This document shows positions 2,504-36,984 of a DNA stretch of 64,000 nucleotides, piece by piece. The notes below the pieces were generated by a model. It searched no databases, had not been told where the DNA came from, and saw nothing but the letters and a program-made list of their open reading frames with translations. Every line of letters starts with the position of its first letter. Positions within the stretch are counted from its first letter, which is position 1. The DNA lies in IMG/VR virus record IMGVR_UViG_3300045988_076522. One strand, written 5' to 3'. The stretch is from a virus. The position numbers and the translations under genes were made by a program.

Positions 2504-3512
2504 AAAGCTCGTAATATGCTACACGCCTCAACAATGTAGTAAATTCGGTAAAACCCGACAACATATGACCATTATTAACAGGAAACACTCCAGACCTAAA
2601 ATCCGGAACTGTTGATACCACTAACATATTAGCCTTAAGTGTGGGTTTTGCCTTATATTCATTCTCTATGTACAATTTCAGCATCCACATATACATAGCC
2701 ATTTGCCTAGCATAGTGATACTTATCAAAGCTCTCATGAAACTTAGTGAGATAATGTCCACTAGTCTTCAAGTCATTGAGAACTAATTCATTCGACTCTG
2801 GACTGTATGTAAAATTATCCAACTTAGCTTTTAGTTTAAGAACCTTACTAAGACCATTATGCTCAACAAGCACATCTATTAATAGTACAGACTCATTCTT
2901 GGAGATTGGCTTCTCTAATAAATAGTCTGGATTCAATAAGGATTGTATTTGTGGATTACATTCAACTGATACAATACATTCTCGTAGTTTGTCTCTAGAT
3001 TTAGCATCAAGATAAATTGGAACCTTATCTGCAACATATTTGCTGCCCCACTCATAAGCTGTGCGTTGAGCATAATAGTTCTCGCATTTTATGCGCAGAG
3101 CATCCATTTTGTCTTCATCCATTTTACCTTTATAATAGCTAATCTTGTCAGACGCTACTACTATCTCATCCTTAGTAACAACACCATTAGCTATAAATAA
3201 AGGATACAGCTCATCAGCCATGAATCCGGCTTTAGCTGTTGGTCTATCTACAGACTCTACAAGAATAAAAGACTCTGGTTGCAGTACTAATTCATGTACT
3301 GCCGAACCAAAGTACAGCGAATCGGAGTATCTTCCATCAGCACCCAGTCCTGCTAAATAAGCTTCTGGGCTACCTCCTTGTTCTGGGTTTATAAGCTTCA
3401 ATCTAGAATTACTAATGTAATCAGAATAAGCTTCACTGAAATACTCCTCATCACTTATCTCAAGGAACTTGATAGTTTCAATTAGTGGTGTAATTTTAAT
3501 GTCTTTAAGCAT
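2475..3512 (-). CDS. Putative PD-(D/E)XK-family nuclease/exonuclease
   Basis: 345 aa with D/E/K-rich segments. It sits in the replication/recombination module. The call rests on context and weak motifs only. Confidence 0.35.
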   Translation of the reverse strand: MLKDIKITPLIETIKFLEISDEEYFSEAYSDYISNSRLKLINPEQGGSPEAYLAGLGADGRYSDSLYFGSAVHELVLQPESFILVESVDRPTAKAGFMADELYPLFIANGVVTKDEIVVASDKISYYKGKMDEDKMDALRIKCENYYAQRTAYEWGSKYVADKVPIYLDAKSRDKLRECIVSVECNPQIQSLLNPDYLLEKPISKNESVLLIDVLVEHNGLSKVLKLKAKLDNFTYSPESNELVLNDLKTSGHYLTKFHESFDKYHYARQMAMYMWMLKLYIENEYKAKPTLKANMLVVSTVPDFRSGVFPVNNGHMLSGFTEFTTLLRRVAYYELYGYDADGIL

Positions 3513-4008
3513 AACTCCTCATGAATTGATAAGCATCTATAATCTCATCTTTACATAAGGAGAATACTTTAAACATAGGAAAGTCAATAGTCCTTTCTGT
3601 ATGCATTAATAATGCAGGCAGTCCAGAACGTTGACATTTTAGTACGTTACTTAAAGAATCGTCAACAAAGACATCCACTTTACCTTTAATCATATCAGCC
3701 TTATTACCGTGTTGGTAATACATTTGATAGACTGGTCTATCTGGGAATCCATTTCGTCTTAGCCATTCTTTAGTCCAAGTTTTATTGTTTACACGTTTAG
3801 TGCAATATAATTCCGGAACAAAATCAGGTCTGTTAACTACTTTGAGATTTAACCAGAAGTCTCTGTCCTTACTAAGAATACGTTGTACATTCCTAGTAAT
3901 CATGCTATCTTCAAGCATACGTGGATTACTAGCTGTATCGAAGTACTCACAGTAAGCACCCCAAAAGTCAGCTAGACAATCGTCAATATCTAAACCTATT
4001 CTAAACAT
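3505..4008 (-). CDS. 5'(3')-deoxyribonucleotidase, HAD superfamily (NT5C-like)
   Basis: N-terminal IGLDIDDCLADF matches HAD motif I (DxDx[T/V]). The ~165 aa size is typical of phage NT5C. Confidence 0.6.
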   Translation of the reverse strand: MFRIGLDIDDCLADFWGAYCEYFDTASNPRMLEDSMITRNVQRILSKDRDFWLNLKVVNRPDFVPELYCTKRVNNKTWTKEWLRRNGFPDRPVYQMYYQHGNKADMIKGKVDVFVDDSLSNVLKCQRSGLPALLMHTERTIDFPMFKVFSLCKDEIIDAYQFMRSYA

Positions 4009-4027
4009 TCATTGTCATCTTGTACGA

Positions 4028-4249
4028 CTAGAACTCTTCTATATCGTATATGTCACCAATAATTATCTCTTTGTCTTTAGCCATAGTACCTGCCAGTTCA
4101 TCATAATCACCTGGAGGGTCTATGTCATAATCTGTAATGAATAAGTCAATAAACTTATCCTCAGCTTCTGTAAAGCTTCTAGCTCTTCCCTTCTCTAGCC
4201 ATAAATCACCGTCGTCCAGACTATAACAAGGCAGAATATAAGTGTTCAT
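4028..4249 (-). CDS. Hypothetical acidic protein
   Basis: 73-aa ORF rich in D/E. Confidence 0.4.
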   Translation of the reverse strand: MNTYILPCYSLDDGDLWLEKGRARSFTEAEDKFIDLFITDYDIDPPGDYDELAGTMAKDKEIIIGDIYDIEEF

Positions 4250-4361
4250 CAGCAGATATAATAATTAAATGATTCAAGATTTAGTAAGTCAAGATGTGAA
4301 TATATCAAATTTGCCATAGGATATTCTAATCAAGCATTACTTAAACAAAGAAAGCCACAGA

Positions 4362-4757
4362 TTACTCCGTAGCCTTCTTAATAAGTTCATAAAAGAAATC
4401 TTTACTCATCATAACGTATTCTCCGTCAGAGCCCATGTTTACTCCCTTGTCAATCTGCTTGTTCCAGATTATTACTAAGGGTCTATCTTTACGACCACAT
4501 GTTTTGATAATTTCAGCAATAGACGGTGTGTTCTTAGTACATTTACATTGTACGTAACATGGCAATTTGTCCTCGGTTTCAGCTATGTCAATTTTAGCAT
4601 CATCCAGATTCTTGGACTCACTACGAGATGACTTTAGGCCTTTATAACCAAGTCCTATCAATTCCTTAATAATCTTAAGTTCATAATTATTACCTTTACG
4701 TTTAGCATATGCACCGTTACGTTTCTTCTTCGGTTTTACTTCTTCAGTGTTCTCCAT
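4362..4757 (-). CDS. Putative Holliday-junction resolvase-like PD-(D/E)XK endonuclease
   Basis: Basic N-terminus. NYELKII...G, then D..KIDIAETE and YVQCK, fit the E/D...D-x(n)-(E/Q)xK arrangement of Hjc/RecU-like resolvases. Confidence 0.4.
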   Translation of the reverse strand: MENTEEVKPKKKRNGAYAKRKGNNYELKIIKELIGLGYKGLKSSRSESKNLDDAKIDIAETEDKLPCYVQCKCTKNTPSIAEIIKTCGRKDRPLVIIWNKQIDKGVNMGSDGEYVMMSKDFFYELIKKATE

Positions 4758-30141: not shown

Positions 30142-30188
30142 TTAGTTGTTAATAAAAGGAGAGCGAGATTGCTCTCGCCCTCCAAGGT

Positions 30189-31646
30189 TTATTTGTTGTC
30201 TTTCTTCTCCGTAGAATAGTCCTTACGGTCAAGTTCCCACTCATACTCACACATCTGAGTAATTGCTTCAAGCTTCTCTGTACCCAGAACGAGTTTGAGA
30301 GCATTTACCAATCTTTCAGCCGGAGTTTCCACAACAGCTTTCTTGGATGCAAGTCCAAGTTGACGTTGATAAGATTCAACGCTAGCTTTGATATGGAACG
30401 ATGTTACATGGGTTTCTTCCGTAAAGATAAGTTTGGATTTGGTTGATTCAACGATTTCAGCCATAAATGCCGGAGCAATTTCAGCTTCTTGAATGTAGTT
30501 ACATACTTCACTCAAATCATCATCGATTGTATATCCTTCTTCAGCGGTGAAGGTAGAACGGATGAATTTCTCCGCAGTTTCAGCGTCCAGGCAGTCCATA
30601 GTAATCACAGAGCCGATTCTCTTACCTCTTAAGAAGGTAGGTTCAATCAATTCAATGTGATTAGTAGTGAACAAGGTGATTACGTTCATGTCTTTGGTAT
30701 CACCACCGTCCAGAGTATTCAGGATGTCTTGCATAGCAGCATCTCTGTTACCTCTAGTTACTTGGTCAATATCTTCAACAAATACGACAACACCATGGCC
30801 CGAACGGTCAACAACTTTACACATGCGCAGAGTTTCTGCAAGAAGAGAAGGATTCTTCAAATACACGAATGACCAGCCGTTTGTTACAGCATCTTTAGCC
30901 AGCTTAAATGCCAGCAAGGTCTTACCTGTACCATATTTACCTTCCAGCAAACAACCATACTTCAATGGAATACCTTTAGCCAGACATTTCTCTGGATACA
31001 AGATTCTTGAGCGTAGCGGTTGCAATTCAAATTCAGTCTTCTTAGAAAGAACCATGAATTGTTTCTCAATGCCGGCAAGTGTCATGATAGTAGGTTCAGA
31101 CAGATTACTGATTTCCAAAGCCTGGTTTTTGTAGATAGATTCTGATGCCAATAGCTCTTTAGTTCTGTCAACAATATCATCAATTAATGACTGGTATTTG
31201 AACTGGCATTGTCCTTTAATAAGGAGCAAATGACGGTCATTGTCATAGTTGATGTTGATTTCAGAATCTTCTCCCAATTCTTCAAGGCTAATTTTACCAA
31301 ACGGAACTTTGGTACGAGAACCGTCTGCCAGAACAACGTCTACGGTATCAATGTTGCTGTTTCCAGAAGGACTGTTATCCTCCTTACTAACGGCAGAACC
31401 GAAGATTTCATTGATTGCTCTGTTCAACTGATATACACCGTCTGGTTTCCAACAAAGCAGCGAGTATTTGAAACTTGCCATTTTCTTGGACTGTTTGATT
31501 TCACCTTCGATGAATCCCAGAGCATCAGCATACTTCACATTGCTTTGGAGCACTTCAATCATTCTCTGTTTCTGAGTTTCCTCGTACTTGTTAACTCTCT
31601 GCTTAATAGCAGCTGTAGTTCCTTGCGGAATAATGTTCTTTGCCAT
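30189..31646 (-). CDS. Classical AAA ATPase (CDC48/FtsH-type module)
   Basis: Walker A GKYGTGKT, Walker B VVFVEDID, sensor-1 TTN, Arg-finger region RGKRIGSVI. Confidence 0.6.
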   Translation of the reverse strand: MAKNIIPQGTTAAIKQRVNKYEETQKQRMIEVLQSNVKYADALGFIEGEIKQSKKMASFKYSLLCWKPDGVYQLNRAINEIFGSAVSKEDNSPSGNSNIDTVDVVLADGSRTKVPFGKISLEELGEDSEININYDNDRHLLLIKGQCQFKYQSLIDDIVDRTKELLASESIYKNQALEISNLSEPTIMTLAGIEKQFMVLSKKTEFELQPLRSRILYPEKCLAKGIPLKYGCLLEGKYGTGKTLLAFKLAKDAVTNGWSFVYLKNPSLLAETLRMCKVVDRSGHGVVVFVEDIDQVTRGNRDAAMQDILNTLDGGDTKDMNVITLFTTNHIELIEPTFLRGKRIGSVITMDCLDAETAEKFIRSTFTAEEGYTIDDDLSEVCNYIQEAEIAPAFMAEIVESTKSKLIFTEETHVTSFHIKASVESYQRQLGLASKKAVVETPAERLVNALKLVLGTEKLEAITQMCEYEWELDRKDYSTEKKDNK

Positions 31647-31649
31647 TAC

Positions 31650-31922
31650 TTAATTAGGTTTATTAATCTTATTTACTTCTTTAATGATTGCCTCACAATT
31701 CTCTCTTGTTGTAGTTAAACAACCAAGTTGAATAATAGAACCGTCTTGAGTGATAGTCAGGTTCTTCTCTTCGACTTTCTTCCTACACAAACCTCCTCTG
31801 ATAATTCTTTTAATGAGTGGAAAGGGTAATATAGTATTCTTACAGAATATCATATTCTTGCCTTCCACATAAATGACATCGTAGCCGTCAATGCTACCTA
31901 CTACCTTACTCATTCGATTCAA
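31650..31922 (-). CDS. Hypothetical protein
   Basis: 90-aa ORF. Confidence 0.4.
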   Translation of the reverse strand: MNRMSKVVGSIDGYDVIYVEGKNMIFCKNTILPFPLIKRIIRGGLCRKKVEEKNLTITQDGSIIQLGCLTTTRENCEAIIKEVNKINKPN

Positions 31923-31935
31923 CTATTAACTGTGT

Positions 31936-32008
31936 GGGCCCGGCCGGACTTGAACCGACAACCTCCTGATTATGAGTCAGTTTCTCTAACCGATTGAGAT
32001 ACGGGCCC
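31936..32008 (-). tRNA. tRNA-Met/Ile2 (anticodon CAT), second copy
   Basis: GGGCCCG...CGGGCCC. Anticodon stem ACTGA/TCAGG with loop CTCATAA. T-arm GTCGGTTCAAGTCCGGC. Confidence 0.65.
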
Positions 32009-32105
32009 CGAACGCCCATGTTTACTCACAATTAACAGTTCTCAAAGAGTAGTGTTGTTAGTGACTTCATGATAAATTCTATTTTAAACTGAAATAATTA
32101 GTAGT

Positions 32106-32175
32106 TGGGCTACCAGGATTCGAACCTGGGCTACAAGAGCCAAAACCTTGTGTGACTACCACTACACCATAGCCC
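32106..32175 (-). tRNA. tRNA-Gln (anticodon TTG)
   Basis: GGGCTAT...TAGCCC. Anticodon stem CAAGG/TCTTG with loop TTTTGGC. T-arm CAGGTTCGAATCCTG. Confidence 0.55.
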
Positions 32176-32197
32176 AGTAAAAGGAGTCCGAAGACTC

Positions 32198-33265
32198 CTA
32201 AACTAACTTATCGAATATCATGGGCTGTATCGACATCCATAAATTTGCTAGCATTTCTCGCTCTGCGTCAGATGCTTCATCCCAATGTGATACGTACAAT
32301 TTCTCCGTTCGTTCATTCCTATAAGGAACCTTAAATGAACGGTTAATGCGTACACTGTGTGCGAATAGGTCTTTGTCGAAATCAATAGCCCTAAGCGTCT
32401 TCTGGAAATCGTTGAACTTATTATTAGGGTCATCGACATCCCTAACAGACATTCCAGAAGGAAACGGGCCGTTACCATGCCTTGTTATATAAGGACGAGT
32501 TACATAACAAGTTTGGATTTCTTTACGTATACCTGCTTTCCGCAACAGCTCGTAAGCGTTTTGTGAAGTTGTATTAGACGGAGTACAATAAGGCATTATG
32601 CCGAATCTTTGGTCAAGCAATATTCCCTGTGAACCTTCAAACACTAGGTTATCATAATTCAACAAGCAATCTTCATTAACCGTACCTGTATGTAAGAAAT
32701 AAGCATGTGCTAACCTACACCAGTTGTCTAGGTCTATCGAAGGATATTTACTAGACATGTTGTAATAGTTATCCACTATGGCATTTAGTTTCTCACGCAG
32801 TATGTAAGGATTCATACAATCTACAACTGTTAAGCTGTATCCTGCCTTAACTCGGTCCAAACAAGCTTTAAACCCTGTACCTACAGTACCATGTCGTAAG
32901 TTCTCTTCGTTATTAACTTGGGAATAGACATCGAAGGGAATTACAACTTGGCAGTGAGGGTGATACTGAACAATGGGATGAACTCCCATTTTAGCTAAGT
33001 CTGCACCCTCCAACATAGAGGTAATTGGGTCTACAGTACAGTATTCGGACCAGTACGTCGGCACTCCAAGTAAGGTTCCGCTGCCAAAGTTACTAAAGGT
33101 GTGCATCATGTCTCCATGCTTTACAGTATGTCCTACTTGATGTCCACCACTAAACCTGACCACTAACACAGACTCTCGCTTACCTATGTACTTGTTACAT
33201 AAGTTGTGAACTGTCTGTCCCTTACCTTCGTCTCCAAAGAATGTTCCTAATACAATACTAATCAT
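32198..33265 (-). CDS. Adenylosuccinate synthetase homolog (PurA/PurZ family), short form
   Basis: P-loop IVLGTFFGDEGKGQ. VVRFSGGHQVGHTV corresponds to the PurA RFQGGHNAGHTV segment. HGTVGTGFKAC corresponds to TTKRGIGP. At 355 aa it is shorter than bacterial PurA (~430 aa). Confidence 0.6.
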   Translation of the reverse strand: MISIVLGTFFGDEGKGQTVHNLCNKYIGKRESVLVVRFSGGHQVGHTVKHGDMMHTFSNFGSGTLLGVPTYWSEYCTVDPITSMLEGADLAKMGVHPIVQYHPHCQVVIPFDVYSQVNNEENLRHGTVGTGFKACLDRVKAGYSLTVVDCMNPYILREKLNAIVDNYYNMSSKYPSIDLDNWCRLAHAYFLHTGTVNEDCLLNYDNLVFEGSQGILLDQRFGIMPYCTPSNTTSQNAYELLRKAGIRKEIQTCYVTRPYITRHGNGPFPSGMSVRDVDDPNNKFNDFQKTLRAIDFDKDLFAHSVRINRSFKVPYRNERTEKLYVSHWDEASDAEREMLANLWMSIQPMIFDKLV

Positions 33266-33271
33266 TTCAGT

Positions 33272-34204
33272 TTAATAAAATTTGTCATTACTATCAGACG
33301 GCACGTCTTGCCATTCCTGACTAACAGAAGCACTAGGAGCTAAGCCTTCAACAGGCTCCTCATAGTTCTCTTTAATTGCGGTGACAATCACCTTGTCTAC
33401 TTCTCCAGATGCACATGTTAATACATTCTGTCCAAGTAAAGTCTTCCAAGATTCAGCAACCCTTGAGCCATGACTGGCATTAGTAATGTGAATGTGGAAT
33501 ACATGGTACTGTTCCTTTGCTTTGTCAAGAGCTTCTTGACAAGTAATGGTTTTAGCACCTTTTTGATACCCTAGAACACGTTCTAAGTAACATCCCTCTA
33601 CCTTATCGAGATTTGGTTCATCTCCAATAGTAAATAAGAATCCCTTAGTGTGTCTTTCAAACCAGGAATCAGTTTCAGTATGATAACCCGCTACGATGTG
33701 AGATAGTAGATAGCTTTCACCTCTATTACCTCCTCCTCCACCTTCAATCACGAATGACTGTAAAGTGTCAAGGATTTTAGCTGTATCAGACTCAAACTGA
33801 CCAATTTGAATTGGATATCGGTCATAAACGTGGTCCCCAACTGCCATAAACATGATTTGTGGGTCACGCACACCTAGTTGAATGAGAGAGTCCATAATCT
33901 TAGGGAATTGGTCTCTAATCATTTCATAAGGTGTGTCCATCATTGAACCAGTAACGTCTAGCGCAATGATTATCGGAGTAGAGAAAGGATGTTCTTTAGA
34001 ATCACGAGATTCACGAACACCCACGTTAACCATTTCTTGCCTTATCTGCGTGTTATACTGCCTAACATTGTTGTTAAGCGATGCAGCAGTATTACATGCA
34101 TTAATGGCATGGCTCTTAAAGAGTTCATCCCTAGTGGAGGTATATAAACCCCTACTGCCGGCCTCTACATCATAAGCAATTCTAGAATAACTACCTGCTC
34201 CCAT
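33272..34204 (-). CDS. von Willebrand factor A (vWA) domain protein
   Basis: MIDAS motif in IIIALDVTGSMMDTP (DxTGS). Gly-rich loop GGGGGNRGESY. Confidence 0.55.
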   Translation of the reverse strand: MGAGSYSRIAYDVEAGSRGLYTSTRDELFKSHAINACNTAASLNNNVRQYNTQIRQEMVNVGVRESRDSKEHPFSTPIIIALDVTGSMMDTPYEMIRDQFPKIMDSLIQLGVRDPQIMFMAVGDHVYDRYPIQIGQFESDTAKILDTLQSFVIEGGGGGNRGESYLLSHIVAGYHTETDSWFERHTKGFLFTIGDEPNLDKVEGCYLERVLGYQKGAKTITCQEALDKAKEQYHVFHIHITNASHGSRVAESWKTLLGQNVLTCASGEVDKVIVTAIKENYEEPVEGLAPSASVSQEWQDVPSDSNDKFY

Positions 34205-34207
34205 AAA

Positions 34208-34588
34208 TTATTCATTTACAGTTGCAGCAGCGTCATCTTTCACGTCATCCAAATTAATGGATTCTGATGCATCAGCGGGAAATTCTTCTGCATCGACTTG
34301 CATAGCTAGAGCAAGTTCAATCTTTGCAACACGCAGTTTACGTGCCAATTCATGTCTTGTTCTTACCCATTCAGCCGGATTCAGTCCTTCTCCCGGATTC
34401 AAAGAGTCTCTTGATTTAACAGCCAGGTCGTTGTGTTTGTTGATTTCTCCCTGAATGCGGAGTACTTTCAATTTACAATCCTGAACAAATCTGTCTTCCT
34501 CGATTTTAGCCAATTCATACAGATTCTGCGCTCTTGCATCAAGTACACTTTGTCCACTCTTACTTAATTTCTCTTTAAAACTGCTCAT
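34208..34588 (-). CDS. Hypothetical coiled-coil protein
   Basis: 126-aa ORF. Confidence 0.45.
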   Translation of the reverse strand: MSSFKEKLSKSGQSVLDARAQNLYELAKIEEDRFVQDCKLKVLRIQGEINKHNDLAVKSRDSLNPGEGLNPAEWVRTRHELARKLRVAKIELALAMQVDAEEFPADASESINLDDVKDDAAATVNE

Positions 34589-36877: not shown

Positions 36878-36896
36878 AAACTCTTATTAGCCAGCG

Positions 36897-36984
36897 CGGA
36901 GAGTGCTGGATTCGAACCAGCGGAACCCTTTTGAGGTTCGGTCCCTTAGCAGGGGACTGGTTTAAGCCACTCACCCAACTCTCC
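36897..36984 (-). tRNA. tRNA-Ser (anticodon GCT), type II
   Basis: GGAGAGT...ACTCTCC. Anticodon stem GTCCC/GGGAC with loop CTGCTAA. Long variable arm. T-arm GCTGGTTCGAATCCAGC. Confidence 0.65.

What the first reader, a model, noticed from the sequence alone, without database searches (positions are those of the whole stretch)
30189..34204. AAA ATPase and vWA/MIDAS protein flanking the PurA-like gene and two tRNAs
A classical AAA module (Walker A and B, sensor-1 TTN, Arg finger) at 30189-31646 and a vWA protein with a DxTGS MIDAS motif at 33272-34204 bracket the PurA/PurZ-like gene. AAA-plus-vWA pairs normally act as chaperone or remodelling couples, as in the MoxR-vWA arrangement. Finding such a pair wrapped around a nucleotide-biosynthesis enzyme in a phage has no obvious precedent. 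The three could form an operon, since all are on the same strand and only tRNAs interrupt them.
Basis: inference. Interest (0 to 1): 0.5.

Follow-up and report, generated by a model that had tools for sequence, protein, structure and literature searches.

The report
Obligate vWA plus PurA-like phage pair
The AAA ATPase is only a lineage-specific neighbour; the real unit is a von Willebrand-A protein that is always encoded directly upstream of a diverged adenylosuccinate-synthetase-like enzyme, a widespread two-gene module of large phages that I could not find described and whose chemistry is probably not ordinary AMP synthesis.

Summary
The vWA fold and MIDAS motif are confirmed (AF2 pLDDT 87; Foldseek hits integrin beta-I and VWF-A3). 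The AAA is a classical-clade AAA.

The proposed AAA-vWA remodelling couple is not supported:
- The AAA is Bcs1/YjoB/Rpt-like, not MoxR.
- It lacks pore-loop 1 and has an ED Walker B.
- It forms its own obligate pair with the overlooked 90-aa ORF (75 of 78 loci).
- It lies next to the vWA/PurA-like genes only in close relatives of this phage.

The vWA-like and PurA-like genes are inseparable. This held in 75/75 and 16/17 loci found through the vWA protein, and in 75/75 evaluable loci found through the PurA-like protein. They span Bxz1-type mycobacteriophages, Vibrio and Rhizobium phages, many metagenomic large phages and a few bacterial contigs.

The PurA-like clade:
- keeps the phosphotransfer residues (Asp13, Lys16, His41, Gln224);
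- has lost the aspartate-binding loop and Arg143;
- in this lineage also lacks the guanine-recognition C-terminus;
- is neither a PurA equivalog nor PurZ.

The vWA partner has a near-invariant N-terminal Met-Gly-x-Gly-x-aromatic motif. In about 39% of lineages a J-domain/pseudokinase gene precedes the pair.

Function is unknown. I predict a two-subunit purine-C6 ligase or aminase that uses an amine other than aspartate.

The parts
34208..34588 (-). 126-aa ORF (orf126), the lineage-specific upstream companion of the vWA-like gene. Its stop codon is 3 nt before the vWA-like ATG.
   Evidence: It has no Pfam, PHROG, NCBIfam or PADLOC hit. Homologues (31-100% identity) sit directly upstream of the vWA-like gene in 111 of 174 loci, or 31 of 82 dereplicated lineages. 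It is unrelated to the J-domain/kinase-like family (hhalign probability 0.2). The junction was read.
33272..34204 (-). vWA-like protein (310 aa) with a complete MIDAS (D83-x-T85-x-S87; D195; a Gly-rich 154-EGGGGGN loop) and an invariant N-terminal M-G-x-G-x-aromatic motif. It is the obligate partner of the PurA-like enzyme.
   Evidence: The AF2 model has pLDDT 86.8. Foldseek against the PDB gives integrin beta-I and VWF-A3 at probability 1.0. It matches phrog_2971 at 3.5e-40. The family has 7030 homologues and 1840 clusters at 50% identity, all about 280-340 aa. Of 137 full-length representatives, 129 start with MG and 122 of those have an aromatic residue at position 6.
32198..33265 (-). PurA-like enzyme (355 aa), a diverged, C-terminally short adenylosuccinate-synthetase homologue. 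It starts 6 nt after the vWA-like stop codon.
   Evidence: Pfam PF00709 matches at 8.7e-35 but covers only profile positions 1-277 of 416. NCBIfam PurA scores 100.8 bits against a cut-off of 402, and PurZ scores 22 against 300. The junction was read.
32104..32176 (-). tRNA-Gln (UUG), part of the phage tRNA array.
   Evidence: Predicted by ARAGORN. A tRNA-Gln follows the PurA-like gene in six related loci checked (L004, L030, L032, L038, L048, L058). tRNAs lie near the pair in only 8 of 60 diverse loci.
31934..32008 (-). tRNA-Met (CAU), part of the phage tRNA array.
   Evidence: Predicted by ARAGORN. It is present in L030 and L032 but absent at this position in L004 and L038.
31650..31922 (-). 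90-aa ORF (small90), the constant upstream partner of the AAA. Its stop codon is 3 nt before the AAA ATG.
   Evidence: It has no family hits. A homologue lies directly upstream of the AAA in 75 of 78 AAA loci. The 92-aa ORF upstream of the megaphage AAA is weakly similar (E=0.002). The junction was read.
30189..31646 (-). AAA ATPase (485 aa). It combines a roughly 200-aa N-terminal alpha/beta domain with a classical-clade AAA module that has an ED Walker B and no aromatic pore-loop-1. It is Bcs1/YjoB-like.
   Evidence: Pfam PF00004 matches at 1.3e-13 and phrog_10440 at 1.4e-55. phmmer hits p97 D2 at 6e-14, with a 4-residue gap at the pore loop. The AF2 model has pLDDT 83.3. The best Foldseek matches are Bcs1 (1.7e-16), YjoB and Rpt subunits.
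30158..30183 (-). Terminator-like hairpin (11-bp stem, 7 G-C pairs, T-rich tail) just downstream of the AAA stop codon.
   Evidence: Found in the scan. No comparably strong minus-strand hairpin lies between 34588 and 30189, so read-through transcription of both cassettes is possible.

Best explanation
Two independent, tightly packed cassettes happen to lie side by side inside this phage's tRNA array.

Cassette 1 is orf126, then vWA-like, then PurA-like, with 3-nt and 6-nt intergenic spacers. It is the local form of an obligate vWA-like plus PurA-like two-gene module found in very many large phages and a few bacterial contigs.

Shown for the PurA-like subunit:
- It keeps the residues that adenylosuccinate synthetase uses to transfer the NTP gamma-phosphate to O6 of a purine nucleotide. 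These are the P-loop with Asp13 and Lys16, plus His41, Gln224, Thr239 and the TRxG motif.
- Throughout the clade it has lost the aspartate-binding loop. TT-G-RRR becomes aromatic-Gln-x-Ser/Thr-hydrophobic, 4 residues shorter, with one conserved Arg kept just after it.
- It has lost the trans-subunit Arg143 and changed Asn38, Thr129 and Val273.
- The window lineage also lacks the guanine-recognition C-terminus.

Inferred:
- The enzyme still makes a 6-phosphoryl-purine intermediate, but resolves it with an amine other than L-aspartate.
- It works as a hetero-complex with the vWA-like protein. That partner either docks through its intact MIDAS or presents its near-invariant N-terminal Gly motif.
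- In about 39% of lineages a J-domain/pseudokinase protein, a presumed DnaK recruiter, is a third member. This phage carries orf126 at that position instead.

Cassette 2 is the 90-aa ORF followed by the AAA. It is a separate obligate pair built around a Bcs1/YjoB-like AAA without a threading pore loop. Its position next to cassette 1 is specific to this lineage.
For: Linkage of vWA-like and PurA-like:
- The vWA homologues in Mycobacterium phage Rizal, Vibrio phage Va1 and Rhizobium phage RHph_Y65 each sit just upstream of a PurA-like gene (separated only by the 90-aa gp252 in Rizal).
- All 75 IMG/VR loci found with the vWA profile carry a PurA-like gene downstream on the same strand, directly or after a short insert.
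- So do 16 of 17 GTDB loci. The exception is a 2.9-kb contig, and in two Myxococcota loci the gene is divergent, about 3.5 kb away.
- Starting from the PurA-like profile, 75 of 78 loci have the vWA-like gene upstream. The other three are cut by a contig end.
- All 82 lineages dereplicated at 70% identity carry both genes.

Independence of the AAA:
- It is absent near the pair in Rizal, Va1, Y65 and L006.
- From the vWA side it is present in 27 of 75 loci. All of these have at least 71% vWA identity, except L058, where it lies 5 kb away.
- From the AAA side the pair is within 7 kb in 29 of 78 loci. In two of these it lies downstream of the AAA.
- AAA homologues in Schitoviridae, PhiW-14 and a 462-kb megaphage have no vWA or PurA neighbour.
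- small90 precedes the AAA in 75 of 78 loci.

Enzyme residues across 42 representatives:
- Kept: Asp13 in 40/42, Lys16 in 42/42, His41 in 42/42, Gln224 in 41/42.
- Changed: Asn38 to Gln in 40/42, Val273 to His in 41/42, Thr300 to an aromatic, Thr301 to Gln in 39/42.
- Arg303 is deleted, Arg304/305 become Ser/Thr plus a hydrophobic residue, and Arg143 is lost.
- The roles of the equivalent residues are taken from the H. pylori AdSS structure paper, PMC11571797.

Family scores are far below the curated PurA and PurZ cut-offs.

vWA protein: fold and MIDAS are, and the N-terminal motif is.

J-domain/pseudokinase.

Tight junctions.
Against: - There is no direct evidence that the two proteins bind each other. 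Complex prediction was not possible with the tools.
- One arginine is retained after the remodelled loop (R292, at least 90% conserved). Aspartate could still be bound in a new way, so the enzyme might remain an adenylosuccinate synthetase.
- The substrate inference rests on alignment to E. coli and H. pylori enzymes at 25-30% identity.
- The loci were retrieved through conserved peptide patterns and only the best 80 per scan were kept. PurA-like genes of this clade without a vWA partner could exist among unseen, more distant hits.
- In this lineage the two cassettes may be co-transcribed, since the only strong terminator-like hairpin follows the AAA. A local functional link with the AAA cannot be strictly excluded.
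Confidence: 0.62

Rival explanations
1. The AAA and the vWA protein form a MoxR-vWA-like or CbbQ/CbbO-like remodelling couple. It activates or matures the PurA-like enzyme encoded between them, and the three genes form one operon.
For: - The genes share a strand with no strong terminator between them, and a strong terminator-like hairpin follows the AAA.
- The arrangement is kept in relatives with at least 71% vWA identity and in L004/L005.
- The vWA protein has an intact MIDAS, as adaptor vWA proteins do.
Against: - The AAA is in the classical clade and is Bcs1/YjoB/Rpt-like, not MoxR.
- It lacks pore-loop 1.
- The AAA is missing next to the pair in most lineages, including phages at about 60% vWA identity. 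Most AAA loci have no vWA or PurA gene within 7 kb.
- The AAA has its own constant partner, small90.
Confidence: 0.06
2. The PurA-like protein is an ordinary auxiliary adenylosuccinate synthetase that boosts AMP/ATP supply during infection. It might, for example, be insensitive to host feedback or ppGpp. The vWA-like protein would be a regulatory or stabilising subunit, or an unrelated host-binding protein that merely travels with it.
For: - The best sequence matches are bacterial AdSS structures (H. pylori 7pvo at 1.4e-21).
- All phosphotransfer residues are conserved.
- One arginine is kept after the remodelled loop.
- Large phages often carry nucleotide-metabolism genes nearby, such as NrdD/G in Va1 and NAD salvage genes in Y65.
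Against: - Thr300, Thr301, Arg303, Arg304 and Arg305 are all replaced or deleted in every clade member, and Arg143 is lost. All but Thr300 and Arg143 are kept in PurZ, which uses Asp.
- Scores are about four-fold below the equivalog cut-offs.
- Ordinary PurA needs no partner, so a near-perfect two-way linkage to a vWA protein would be unexplained.
Confidence: 0.17
3. This is a PurZ-like route to a modified purine in phage DNA, either 2-aminoadenine or another N6-substituted adenine. The vWA-like protein would be an accessory factor.
For: - PHROG annotates the family together with PurZ (phrog_1211).
- The window lineage lacks the guanine-recognition elements (K331/D333-type loop and the S414-x-G-P motif), which would be compatible with a change of NTP.
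Against: - Position 13 is Asp in 40 of 42 representatives. It is Ser in 100% of the 147 phage PurZ/PurZ0 sequences (PMC12884076; bioRxiv 2025.10.22.683976).
- The NCBIfam PurZ score is 22 bits against a cut-off of 300.
- PurZ structures are not among the PDB hits.
- PurZ keeps the Asp loop, and this clade does not.
- No DatZ, MazZ or DpoZ-like hit appeared among the roughly 38 window ORFs scanned. That scan was not exhaustive.
Confidence: 0.06
4. The module belongs to phage RNA or tRNA repair, or to counter-defence. The PurA-like enzyme would act on a purine within RNA, or on an RNA-derived or signalling nucleotide, rather than on free IMP.
For: - The pair sits inside tRNA arrays in this lineage.
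- It lies near Pnk in Rizal, TROVE/Ro60 in Va1 and RlaP in L006.
- In about 11 lineages it lies near HAD_SAK_2, an R2K ATP-grasp enzyme and an ATP-dependent DNA/RNA ligase.
- Contacts to the IMP 5'-phosphate and ribose (Thr129, Arg143, Arg303) are altered.
Against: - tRNAs are near the pair in only 8 of 60 diverse loci.
- The RNA-repair neighbours differ between lineages and could simply reflect clustering of accessory genes.
- No RNA-binding domain was detected.
- There is no PADLOC hit.
Confidence: 0.09

Closest known systems
Adenylosuccinate synthetase PurA (AdSS; Pfam PF00709, TIGR00184)
   Same: - Same fold family and P-loop.
- Asp13, Lys16, His41, Gln224, Thr239 and the TRxG motif are conserved.
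- The best PDB sequence matches are bacterial AdSS.
   Different: - The aspartate loop (Thr300, Thr301, Arg303-305) is replaced and 4 residues shorter.
- Arg143 from the partner subunit is lost.
- Asn38 becomes Gln and Val273 becomes His.
- The window lineage lacks about 70 C-terminal residues, including the guanine-binding Ser414-x-Gly-Pro.
- Scores are far below the equivalog cut-offs.
- It is always encoded with a vWA-like partner.
PurZ / PurZ0 (N6-succino-2-amino-2'-deoxyadenylate synthase of Z-genome phages)
   Same: Both are phage-encoded, short PurA homologues. PHROG groups them in the same family.
   Different: - PurZ has Ser at position 13 and keeps the Thr-Thr ... Arg-Arg aspartate loop (PMC12884076).
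- This clade has Asp13 and no such loop.
- The PurZ model scores 22 bits against a cut-off of 300.
- PurZ is not linked to a vWA gene in phiVC8.
MoxR-vWA chaperone pairs (RavA-ViaA, CbbQ-CbbO, NorQ-NorD; jumbo-phage MoxR-vWA, PMC7824862)
   Same: A MIDAS-bearing vWA protein is encoded near an AAA-type ATPase and next to an enzyme it might service.
   Different: - The ATPase here is PF00004 classical-clade and Bcs1-like, not MoxR.
- ATPase-vWA adjacency is not conserved.
- The vWA protein is coupled to the enzyme gene rather than to the ATPase.
TerY-P triad (vWA TerY + Ser/Thr kinase + PP2C phosphatase; Gao et al. 2020 defence system, recalled from my own knowledge)
   Same: In 32 of 82 lineages a protein-kinase-fold gene directly precedes a stand-alone vWA gene. 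This includes Bxz1-type phages and Myxococcota contigs.
   Different: - PADLOC models do not hit the vWA-like protein.
- Most of the kinase-like proteins lack the HRD aspartate and carry an N-terminal J-domain.
- No phosphatase was seen.
- The third constant member is a PurA-like enzyme.
- The window itself has no kinase-like gene.
Bcs1 / Bacillus YjoB AAA ATPases (for the AAA gene only)
   Same: They are the best Foldseek matches over about 380-450 aligned columns, including the N-terminal domain (E=1.7e-16; TM-score 0.46 on the query and 0.55 on the target for 9gsn_A). Both contain a classical AAA module.
   Different: - Sequence identity is only 14-18%.
- This is a phage family (phrog_10440) with an ED Walker B.
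- It is always preceded by a roughly 90-aa ORF.
- Oligomeric state, membrane association and substrate are unknown.

Membership tests
Adenylosuccinate synthetase (PurA equivalog) | Scores above the curated family cut-off (TIGR00184 / NF002223) | tested here: not met
   It scores 91.6 bits against 395.6 and 100.8 bits against 402. The Pfam match covers only profile positions 1-277 of 416.
Adenylosuccinate synthetase (PurA equivalog) | Catalytic and phosphotransfer residues Asp13, Lys16, His41 and Gln224 | tested here: met
   The window protein has GDEGKG, GGHQVGHT and EGSQG. In the clade, Asp13 is kept in 40/42, Lys16 in 42/42, His41 in 42/42 and Gln224 in 41/42.
Adenylosuccinate synthetase (PurA equivalog) | L-aspartate loop: Thr300-Thr301-Gly-Arg303-Arg304-Arg305 | tested here: not met
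   The loop is replaced by Phe-Gln-Lys-Thr-Leu-Arg and is 4 residues shorter. Clade-wide the pattern is aromatic / Gln in 39 of 42 / Arg303 deleted.
Adenylosuccinate synthetase (PurA equivalog) | Guanine recognition (Lys331/Asp333 and Ser414-x-Gly-Pro) and the trans-subunit Arg143 | tested here: not met
   The window protein ends before the Ser414 motif. Lys331 is His or Cys. Arg143 is Gly, Glu or Pro. Longer clade members keep Ser-x-Gly-Pro (about 20 of 42).
PurZ | Ser in place of Asp13 | tested here: not met
   The window protein has Asp, as do 40 of 42 clade members. PurZ has Ser in 100% of sequences (PMC12884076).
PurZ | Score above the NCBIfam NF038379 cut-off | tested here: not met
   It scores 22.2 bits against 300.
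PurZ | Companion genes DatZ, MazZ or DpoZ in the genome | tested here: inconclusive
   None appeared among about 38 window ORFs scanned against Pfam. Only 64 kb of a roughly 180-kb genome was available.
von Willebrand factor A (vWA) domain | Rossmann-like vWA fold | tested here: met
   The AF2 model has pLDDT 86.8. Foldseek hits integrin beta-I and VWF-A3 domains at E down to 2.5e-7 with probability 1.0.
von Willebrand factor A (vWA) domain | MIDAS residues: DxSxS, plus Thr and Asp | tested here: met
   D83-V-T85-G-S87 and D195 are at least 90% conserved (T141 also conserved, role unassigned). DVTGS is found in 99 of 137 representatives. Metal binding itself was not tested.
von Willebrand factor A (vWA) domain | Match to a Pfam VWA model | tested here: not met
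   No Pfam hit at E<=0.01. A profile of the family finds no PDB sequence at E<=1.
MoxR-vWA chaperone system | The ATPase belongs to the MoxR clade (Pfam AAA_3 / AAA_5) | tested here: not met
   Only PF00004 (classical AAA) and weak STAND P-loop hits were found. The nearest structures are Bcs1, YjoB, Rpt and p97 D2.
MoxR-vWA chaperone system | Conserved adjacency of the ATPase and vWA genes | tested here: not met
   The two are adjacent in 26 of 78 AAA loci, all close relatives. The AAA is absent around the vWA gene in most lineages.
Classical AAA ATPase (PF00004) | Walker A, sensor-1 Asn and the second-region-of-homology arginines | tested here: met
   GKYGTGKT, TTN, R340 and R343 are invariant in 36 diverse homologues.
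Classical AAA ATPase (PF00004) | Canonical hhhhDE Walker B and an aromatic pore-loop-1 | tested here: not met
   Walker B is F-x-E-D-I-D family-wide. A 4-residue gap replaces the MWFG pore loop of p97 D2.
TerY-P triad defence system | TerY-type vWA protein plus an active Ser/Thr kinase plus a PP2C phosphatase | tested here: not met
   There is no PADLOC hit for the vWA-like protein. The window has no kinase-like gene. Elsewhere the kinase-like partner lacks the HRD aspartate. No PP2C phosphatase appeared among the neighbour ORFs scanned with Pfam; no dedicated phosphatase search was run.

The most novel reading that the evidence does not exclude
The PurA-like enzyme may not be a small-molecule synthetase at all. 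It could be a protein-directed ligase. After phosphorylating O6 of IMP or another 6-oxopurine nucleotide, it would use the free alpha-amine of the partner's invariant N-terminal glycine, exposed once the initiator Met is removed, in place of aspartate. The vWA-like protein would then be covalently joined to purine C6, a form of N-terminal 'purinylation' adding about +330 Da.

This reading would account for four observations:
- the obligate pairing of the two genes;
- the loss of every carboxylate-binding residue of the aspartate site;
- the Met-Gly-x-Gly-x-aromatic motif kept across 1840 sequence clusters;
- the recruitment of a J-domain/pseudokinase scaffold in many lineages.
Probability: 0.1. 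Interest if true: 0.9.

Novelty: new variant of a known kind. Interest (0 to 1): 0.6.

Why it matters
A 2026 survey found 481 PF00709 homologues in phage genomes. Only 147 are PurZ and about five (by my arithmetic from the paper's group sizes) group with bacterial PurA. The remainder was left undiscussed (PMC12884076).

The present analysis suggests that much of that remainder, including the 201 Mycobacterium phage records hit by the vWA protein (Bxz1-type checked in Rizal), is a distinct clade. It has a remodelled amine-substrate site and an obligate vWA partner, and often a J-domain/pseudokinase as well.

If the predicted change of substrate is real, large phages carry a widespread and unrecognised purine-C6 ligation or amination chemistry. 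It may bear on nucleotide pools, nucleic-acid modification or protein modification.

Cultured carriers exist (cluster C mycobacteriophages, Vibrio phage Va1, Rhizobium RHph phages), so the question can be tested directly.

There is also a practical point for annotation. These genes should not be labelled adenylosuccinate synthetase or '2-aminooxy adenylosuccinate synthetase / PurZ'.

Tried and rejected
- Nucleotide search. Megablast of the region against 50,697 phage records found nothing.
- Candidate AAA relatives. Rizal gp250 and the 502-aa Va1 ORF were tested as possible AAA homologues. Neither is one: the first matches Pkinase, the second is TROVE/Ro60.
- Rosetta-stone fusion. L061 encodes one 576-aa vWA::PurA-like ORF. 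It joins vWA residue ~241 to PurA-like residue 14, removing the P-loop Asp13 and the vWA C-terminus. I treat it as a deletion or assembly artefact, not as evidence. None of the 150 best 50%-identity representatives is longer than 409 aa.
- Known defence systems. PADLOC gives no hit for the vWA-like or PurA-like proteins, and only weak generic IetA hits for the AAA.
- PDB sequence search. A profile of the vWA family finds nothing.
- AlphaFold-DB Foldseek. The library was unavailable.
- tRNA linkage as a general feature. Rejected, because tRNAs are nearby in only 8 of 60 diverse loci.
- orf126 as a remnant of the J-domain/kinase-like gene. Rejected (hhalign probability 0.2).
- Literature. Searches for vWA plus adenylosuccinate synthetase, for the PurA of Bxz1-type mycobacteriophages, and for PurA-like or PurA-homologue phage proteins found no description of the pairing.
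- Complex prediction.

Full report
**What is in the window**

Between 34588 and 30158 all features are on the minus strand. In order they are:
- a 126-aa ORF (34208-34588);
- the vWA-like gene (33272-34204, 310 aa);
- the PurA-like gene (32198-33265, 355 aa);
- tRNA-Gln (32104-32176);
- tRNA-Met (31934-32008);
- a 90-aa ORF (31650-31922);
- the AAA gene (30189-31646, 485 aa);
- a strong terminator-like hairpin (30158-30183).

The junctions are very tight. orf126 ends with TAA, and the vWA-like ATG follows after 3 nt. The vWA-like gene ends with TAA, and the PurA-like ATG follows after 6 nt. small90 ends with TAA, and the AAA ATG follows after 3 nt. The region therefore reads as two compact cassettes separated by 275 bp that hold two tRNAs.

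The window carries 29 tRNA genes and replication genes: a DnaB-like helicase, a Toprim primase, an SF2 helicase and a PD-(D/E)XK nuclease. Near-identical contigs of 72-270 kb, and relatives of about 180 kb, are abundant in IMG/VR and other metagenome assemblies. There is no nucleotide-level match among 50,697 deposited phage genomes.

**Checking the observation**

The AAA call is correct. Pfam PF00004 matches at 1.3e-13, and phmmer hits p97/Cdc48 D2, VAT and Rpt subunits. Walker A (GKYGTGKT), sensor-1 (TTN) and two arginines (R340, R343) are invariant over 36 homologues that go down to 25% identity.

Two details do not fit a classical module. Walker B is F-x-E-D-I-D rather than DE in the whole family. 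In the alignment to p97 D2, a four-residue gap removes the aromatic pore-loop-1.

The vWA call is also correct, although no Pfam VWA model or PDB sequence profile detects it. An AF2 model built on 34 homologues has mean pLDDT 86.8 and pTM 0.87. It hits integrin beta-I and VWF-A3 domains with Foldseek probability 1.0. D83-x-T85-x-S87 and D195 are at least 90% conserved (T141 is also conserved).

The statement that only tRNAs interrupt the three genes is wrong, because the 90-aa ORF is a real, conserved gene. Sharing a strand means little, since nearly all genes from 1 to 57 kb are on the minus strand.

**The AAA is a separate module**

tblastn places AAA homologues (24-34% identity) in N4-like Schitoviridae, Delftia phage PhiW-14, Stenotrophomonas, Gordonia and a few Mycobacterium phages. 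The best hit is a 462-kb uncultured megaphage. In Erwinia phage Frozen, PhiW-14 and the megaphage, the neighbours are replication or other early genes. There is no vWA or PurA-like gene nearby.

A scan of IMG/VR with an AAA profile returned 78 loci:
- A homologue of the 90-aa ORF lies directly upstream in 75. Two of the other three are cut by a contig end.
- A vWA-like/PurA-like pair lies within 7 kb in only 29.
- Of those 29, 26 are close relatives of the window phage, with at least 88% AAA identity.
- In one locus the pair is 5 kb away, and in two it lies downstream of the AAA.

From the vWA side, phages whose vWA protein is still about 60% identical (L038-L062) have other genes at the small90-AAA position, between the same tRNA-Gln and tRNA-Leu (shown for L038).

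The AF2 model of the AAA has pLDDT 83.3. It aligns best with Bcs1 (E=1.7e-16, about 410 columns including the N-terminal domain) and with B. subtilis YjoB, followed by proteasomal Rpt subunits. There is no MoxR signature.

That condition is met for the AAA.

**The vWA-like and PurA-like genes are inseparable**

tblastn with the vWA-like protein hit 220 phage records: 201 Mycobacterium, 10 Rhizobium and 6 Vibrio. In Rizal (Bxz1-type), Va1 and RHph_Y65, the homologue lies just upstream of a PurA-like gene.

| Starting point | Result |
|---|---|
| vWA profile, IMG/VR | PurA-like gene downstream on the same strand in 75 of 75 loci, with vWA identity down to 34% |
| vWA profile, GTDB genomes | 16 of 17 loci. 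The exception is a 2.9-kb contig. In two Myxococcota contigs the gene is divergent, 3.5 kb away |
| PurA-like profile, IMG/VR | vWA-like gene upstream in 75 of 78 loci. The other three start at a contig end |
| Dereplicated at 70% PurA-like identity | All 82 lineages carry both genes |

The vWA-like family is large and uniform. It has 7030 members at E<=1e-3 in the 90%-identity clusters. It has 1840 clusters at 50% identity, and the 150 best representatives are all about 190-410 aa with no fusions.

One apparent fusion, in L061, joins vWA residue ~241 to PurA-like residue 14. I read it as a deletion derivative.

**What the PurA-like enzyme keeps and what it has lost**

I aligned it with E. coli PurA and phiVC8 PurZ, and then across 42 representatives.

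Kept: Gly12-Asp13 (40/42), Lys16 (42/42), His41 (42/42), Gln224 (41/42), Thr239 and Thr271-Arg272-x-Gly274.

Clade-specific changes:
- Asn38 to Gln (40/42);
- Val273 to His (41/42);
- Thr129 to Cys or Val;
- Arg143 lost;
- the aspartate loop rebuilt: Thr300 to an aromatic, Thr301 to Gln (39/42), Arg303 deleted, and Arg304/305 to Ser/Thr plus a hydrophobic residue, with one conserved Arg remaining (R292 in window numbering).

In H. pylori AdSS the equivalent residues contact IMP: Asp12, Asn37, Thr121, Thr230, Val264, Arg294 and Arg135 of the other subunit. Arg294 and Arg296 hold a sulphate ion; I take that position to be the aspartate site (PMC11571797). PurZ, which also uses aspartate, keeps Thr-Thr ... 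Arg-Arg.

The window sub-clade also ends before the Ser414-x-Gly-Pro guanine-binding motif.

Curated models agree that this is neither PurA (100.8 bits against a cut-off of 402) nor PurZ (22 bits against 300). PurZ is defined by Ser at position 13 (PMC12884076), whereas this clade has Asp.

That paper counted 481 phage PF00709 homologues. Of these, 147 are PurZ and about five (my subtraction from the paper's 251-sequence PurA group, 246 of them prokaryotic) cluster with bacterial PurA. The rest were not discussed. The clade described here plausibly accounts for much of that remainder.

**Features of the vWA-like partner and a frequent third gene**

Besides the MIDAS, the family has a striking N-terminus. 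Of 137 full-length 50%-identity representatives, 129 begin with Met-Gly. Position 4 is Gly, Ser or Thr. Position 6 is Tyr, Trp or Phe in 122 of the 129. Where my ORF extraction (first start after a stop) chose an upstream start, the same motif appears internally.

In 47 of 174 loci, or 32 of 82 dereplicated lineages, the gene directly upstream of the vWA-like gene encodes a 290-480-aa protein of one family. These loci include Bxz1-type phages and the Myxococcota contigs.
- A profile of this family hits Ser/Thr kinases (STK33, 6e-7) and J-domains.
- The alignment shows a conserved HPD motif.
- The HRD aspartate is replaced by Gly, Ala or Asn, which suggests a J-domain/pseudokinase.

The window has no such gene in its 64 kb. 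It has orf126 instead, which is shared by 31 lineages and is unrelated to the kinase-like family.

Other neighbours recur only within particular lineages. They include an R2K ATP-grasp enzyme, an ATP-dependent DNA/RNA ligase and HAD_SAK_2. They also include Pnk in Rizal, TROVE in Va1 and RlaP in L006. tRNAs are adjacent in only 8 of 60 diverse loci.

**Interpretation**

Shown:
- two separate obligate pairs (vWA-like with PurA-like, and small90 with the AAA);
- a PurA-like catalytic core with an intact phosphotransfer apparatus;
- loss of the canonical aspartate site, of Arg143 and, in this lineage, of the guanine-binding C-terminus;
- an intact MIDAS and a conserved N-terminal Gly motif in the partner.

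Inferred:
- The enzyme still forms a 6-phosphoryl-purine intermediate.
- It resolves that intermediate with an amine other than aspartate.
- It works in complex with the vWA-like protein.

I put about 0.85 on the comparative-genomic conclusion and about 0.3-0.4 on the changed-substrate, hetero-complex mechanism. The rivals, each below this, are:
- an ordinary AdSS with a regulatory subunit;
- a PurZ-like DNA-modification route;
- an RNA-repair or counter-defence role;

The most novel reading not excluded is that the partner's N-terminal glycine is itself the amine acceptor.

**Novelty and limits**

I found no description of the pairing in the searchable literature. The Aravind-lab jumbo-phage survey mentions MoxR-vWA pairs and sporadic DnaJ proteins, but it does not mention a PurA homologue. 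PADLOC has no model for either protein.

The limits of this analysis are:
- No complex prediction and no experiment was possible.
- Substrate inference rests on alignments at 25-30% identity.
- Locus retrieval is pattern-based and capped at 80 loci per scan.
- The database of AlphaFold models was unavailable.

Noticed in passing
L012:7968-8717 (also 15 other near-identical IMG/VR loci, e.g. L013, L014, L016-L020, L026, L029); corresponds to window ~33266-33271: In 16 loci that are otherwise about 99% identical, a 249-aa ORF is inserted exactly between the vWA-like and PurA-like genes. It has repeated Cys-x2-Cys motifs; homing-endonuclease is my guess from the insertion pattern and was not tested. 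The first ~8 PurA-like codons are left behind as a remnant, and a re-coded start (MINIVLGSFFGDCGKG) follows the insert. The window lacks the insert. In six other lineages a GIY-YIG endonuclease occupies the same intergenic position.
   Followed up: partly
window 44072-44144 (- strand); also L066:14195-14266: ARAGORN reports a tRNA with a CUA anticodon (labelled Pyl), which would be an amber-suppressor tRNA. Together with the large tRNA set, this raises the possibility of TAG read-through or recoding in part of the genome. Relatives also encode tmRNAs (L066, L169, L176).
   Followed up: no
window 36881-36957 (+) and 36896-36984 (-): Two overlapping tRNA predictions lie on opposite strands: Arg-TCG on plus and Ser-GCT on minus. 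The plus-strand call is probably an artefact, given that the other 28 tRNAs are all on the minus strand.
   Followed up: no
window 37072-39033 (- strand): A 653-aa protein combines an N-terminal SPFH/Band-7 domain (1e-24) with a very long Ala/Glu/Lys-rich repetitive coiled-coil-like region. This is a flotillin-like protein encoded by a phage.
   Followed up: no
L061:7001-8731: A single 576-aa ORF joins vWA-like residue ~241 to PurA-like residue 14 (junction HIHITNG|GKGQTV). This deletes the P-loop Asp13 region. It is most likely a deletion variant or a mis-assembly rather than a functional fusion.
   Followed up: yes
L001:3652-4782 (Rizal gp250), L101:5408-6850, L076:5833-6846, L129:2810-3694 and about 43 more loci: A family of J-domain (HPD motif) plus protein-kinase-like proteins lies directly upstream of the vWA-like gene in 32 of 82 lineages. 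The HRD aspartate is missing in the 17 aligned members. Only the Rizal and Myxococcota members (of 12 scanned) match Pfam Pkinase, and only weakly.
   Followed up: partly
L098:6872-8746, L099, L103 (Ruminococcus / Clostridiales MAG contigs): Two tandem vWA-like paralogues precede the PurA-like gene. In L098 a canonical SBP_bac_11 plus VWA protein also lies about 2 kb upstream of them (3007-4692).
   Followed up: no
L101 and L102 (Myxococcota MAG contigs, 162 kb and 13.7 kb): The module occurs in an apparently chromosomal context, next to an Omp85-family gene. A zinc-ribbon kinase is followed by a long (484-aa) vWA-like protein. These are divergently oriented to a 693-aa multi-zinc-ribbon protein followed by a PurA-like gene.
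   Followed up: partly
L009:2459-5571 (uncultured megaphage LR756500.1): The NAD-dependent DNA ligase appears split. The adenylation domain and the OB/Zn-finger part lie in separate ORFs, with a DUF7487 (TnsA-like endonuclease) gene inserted between them, just upstream of the small ORF and AAA pair.
   Followed up: no
L002:10240-11748 (Vibrio phage Va1): A TROVE/Ro60-like protein with a C-terminal Ro60-type vWA domain is encoded 2.3 kb downstream of the vWA-like/PurA-like pair. The record annotates it as hypothetical.
   Followed up: no
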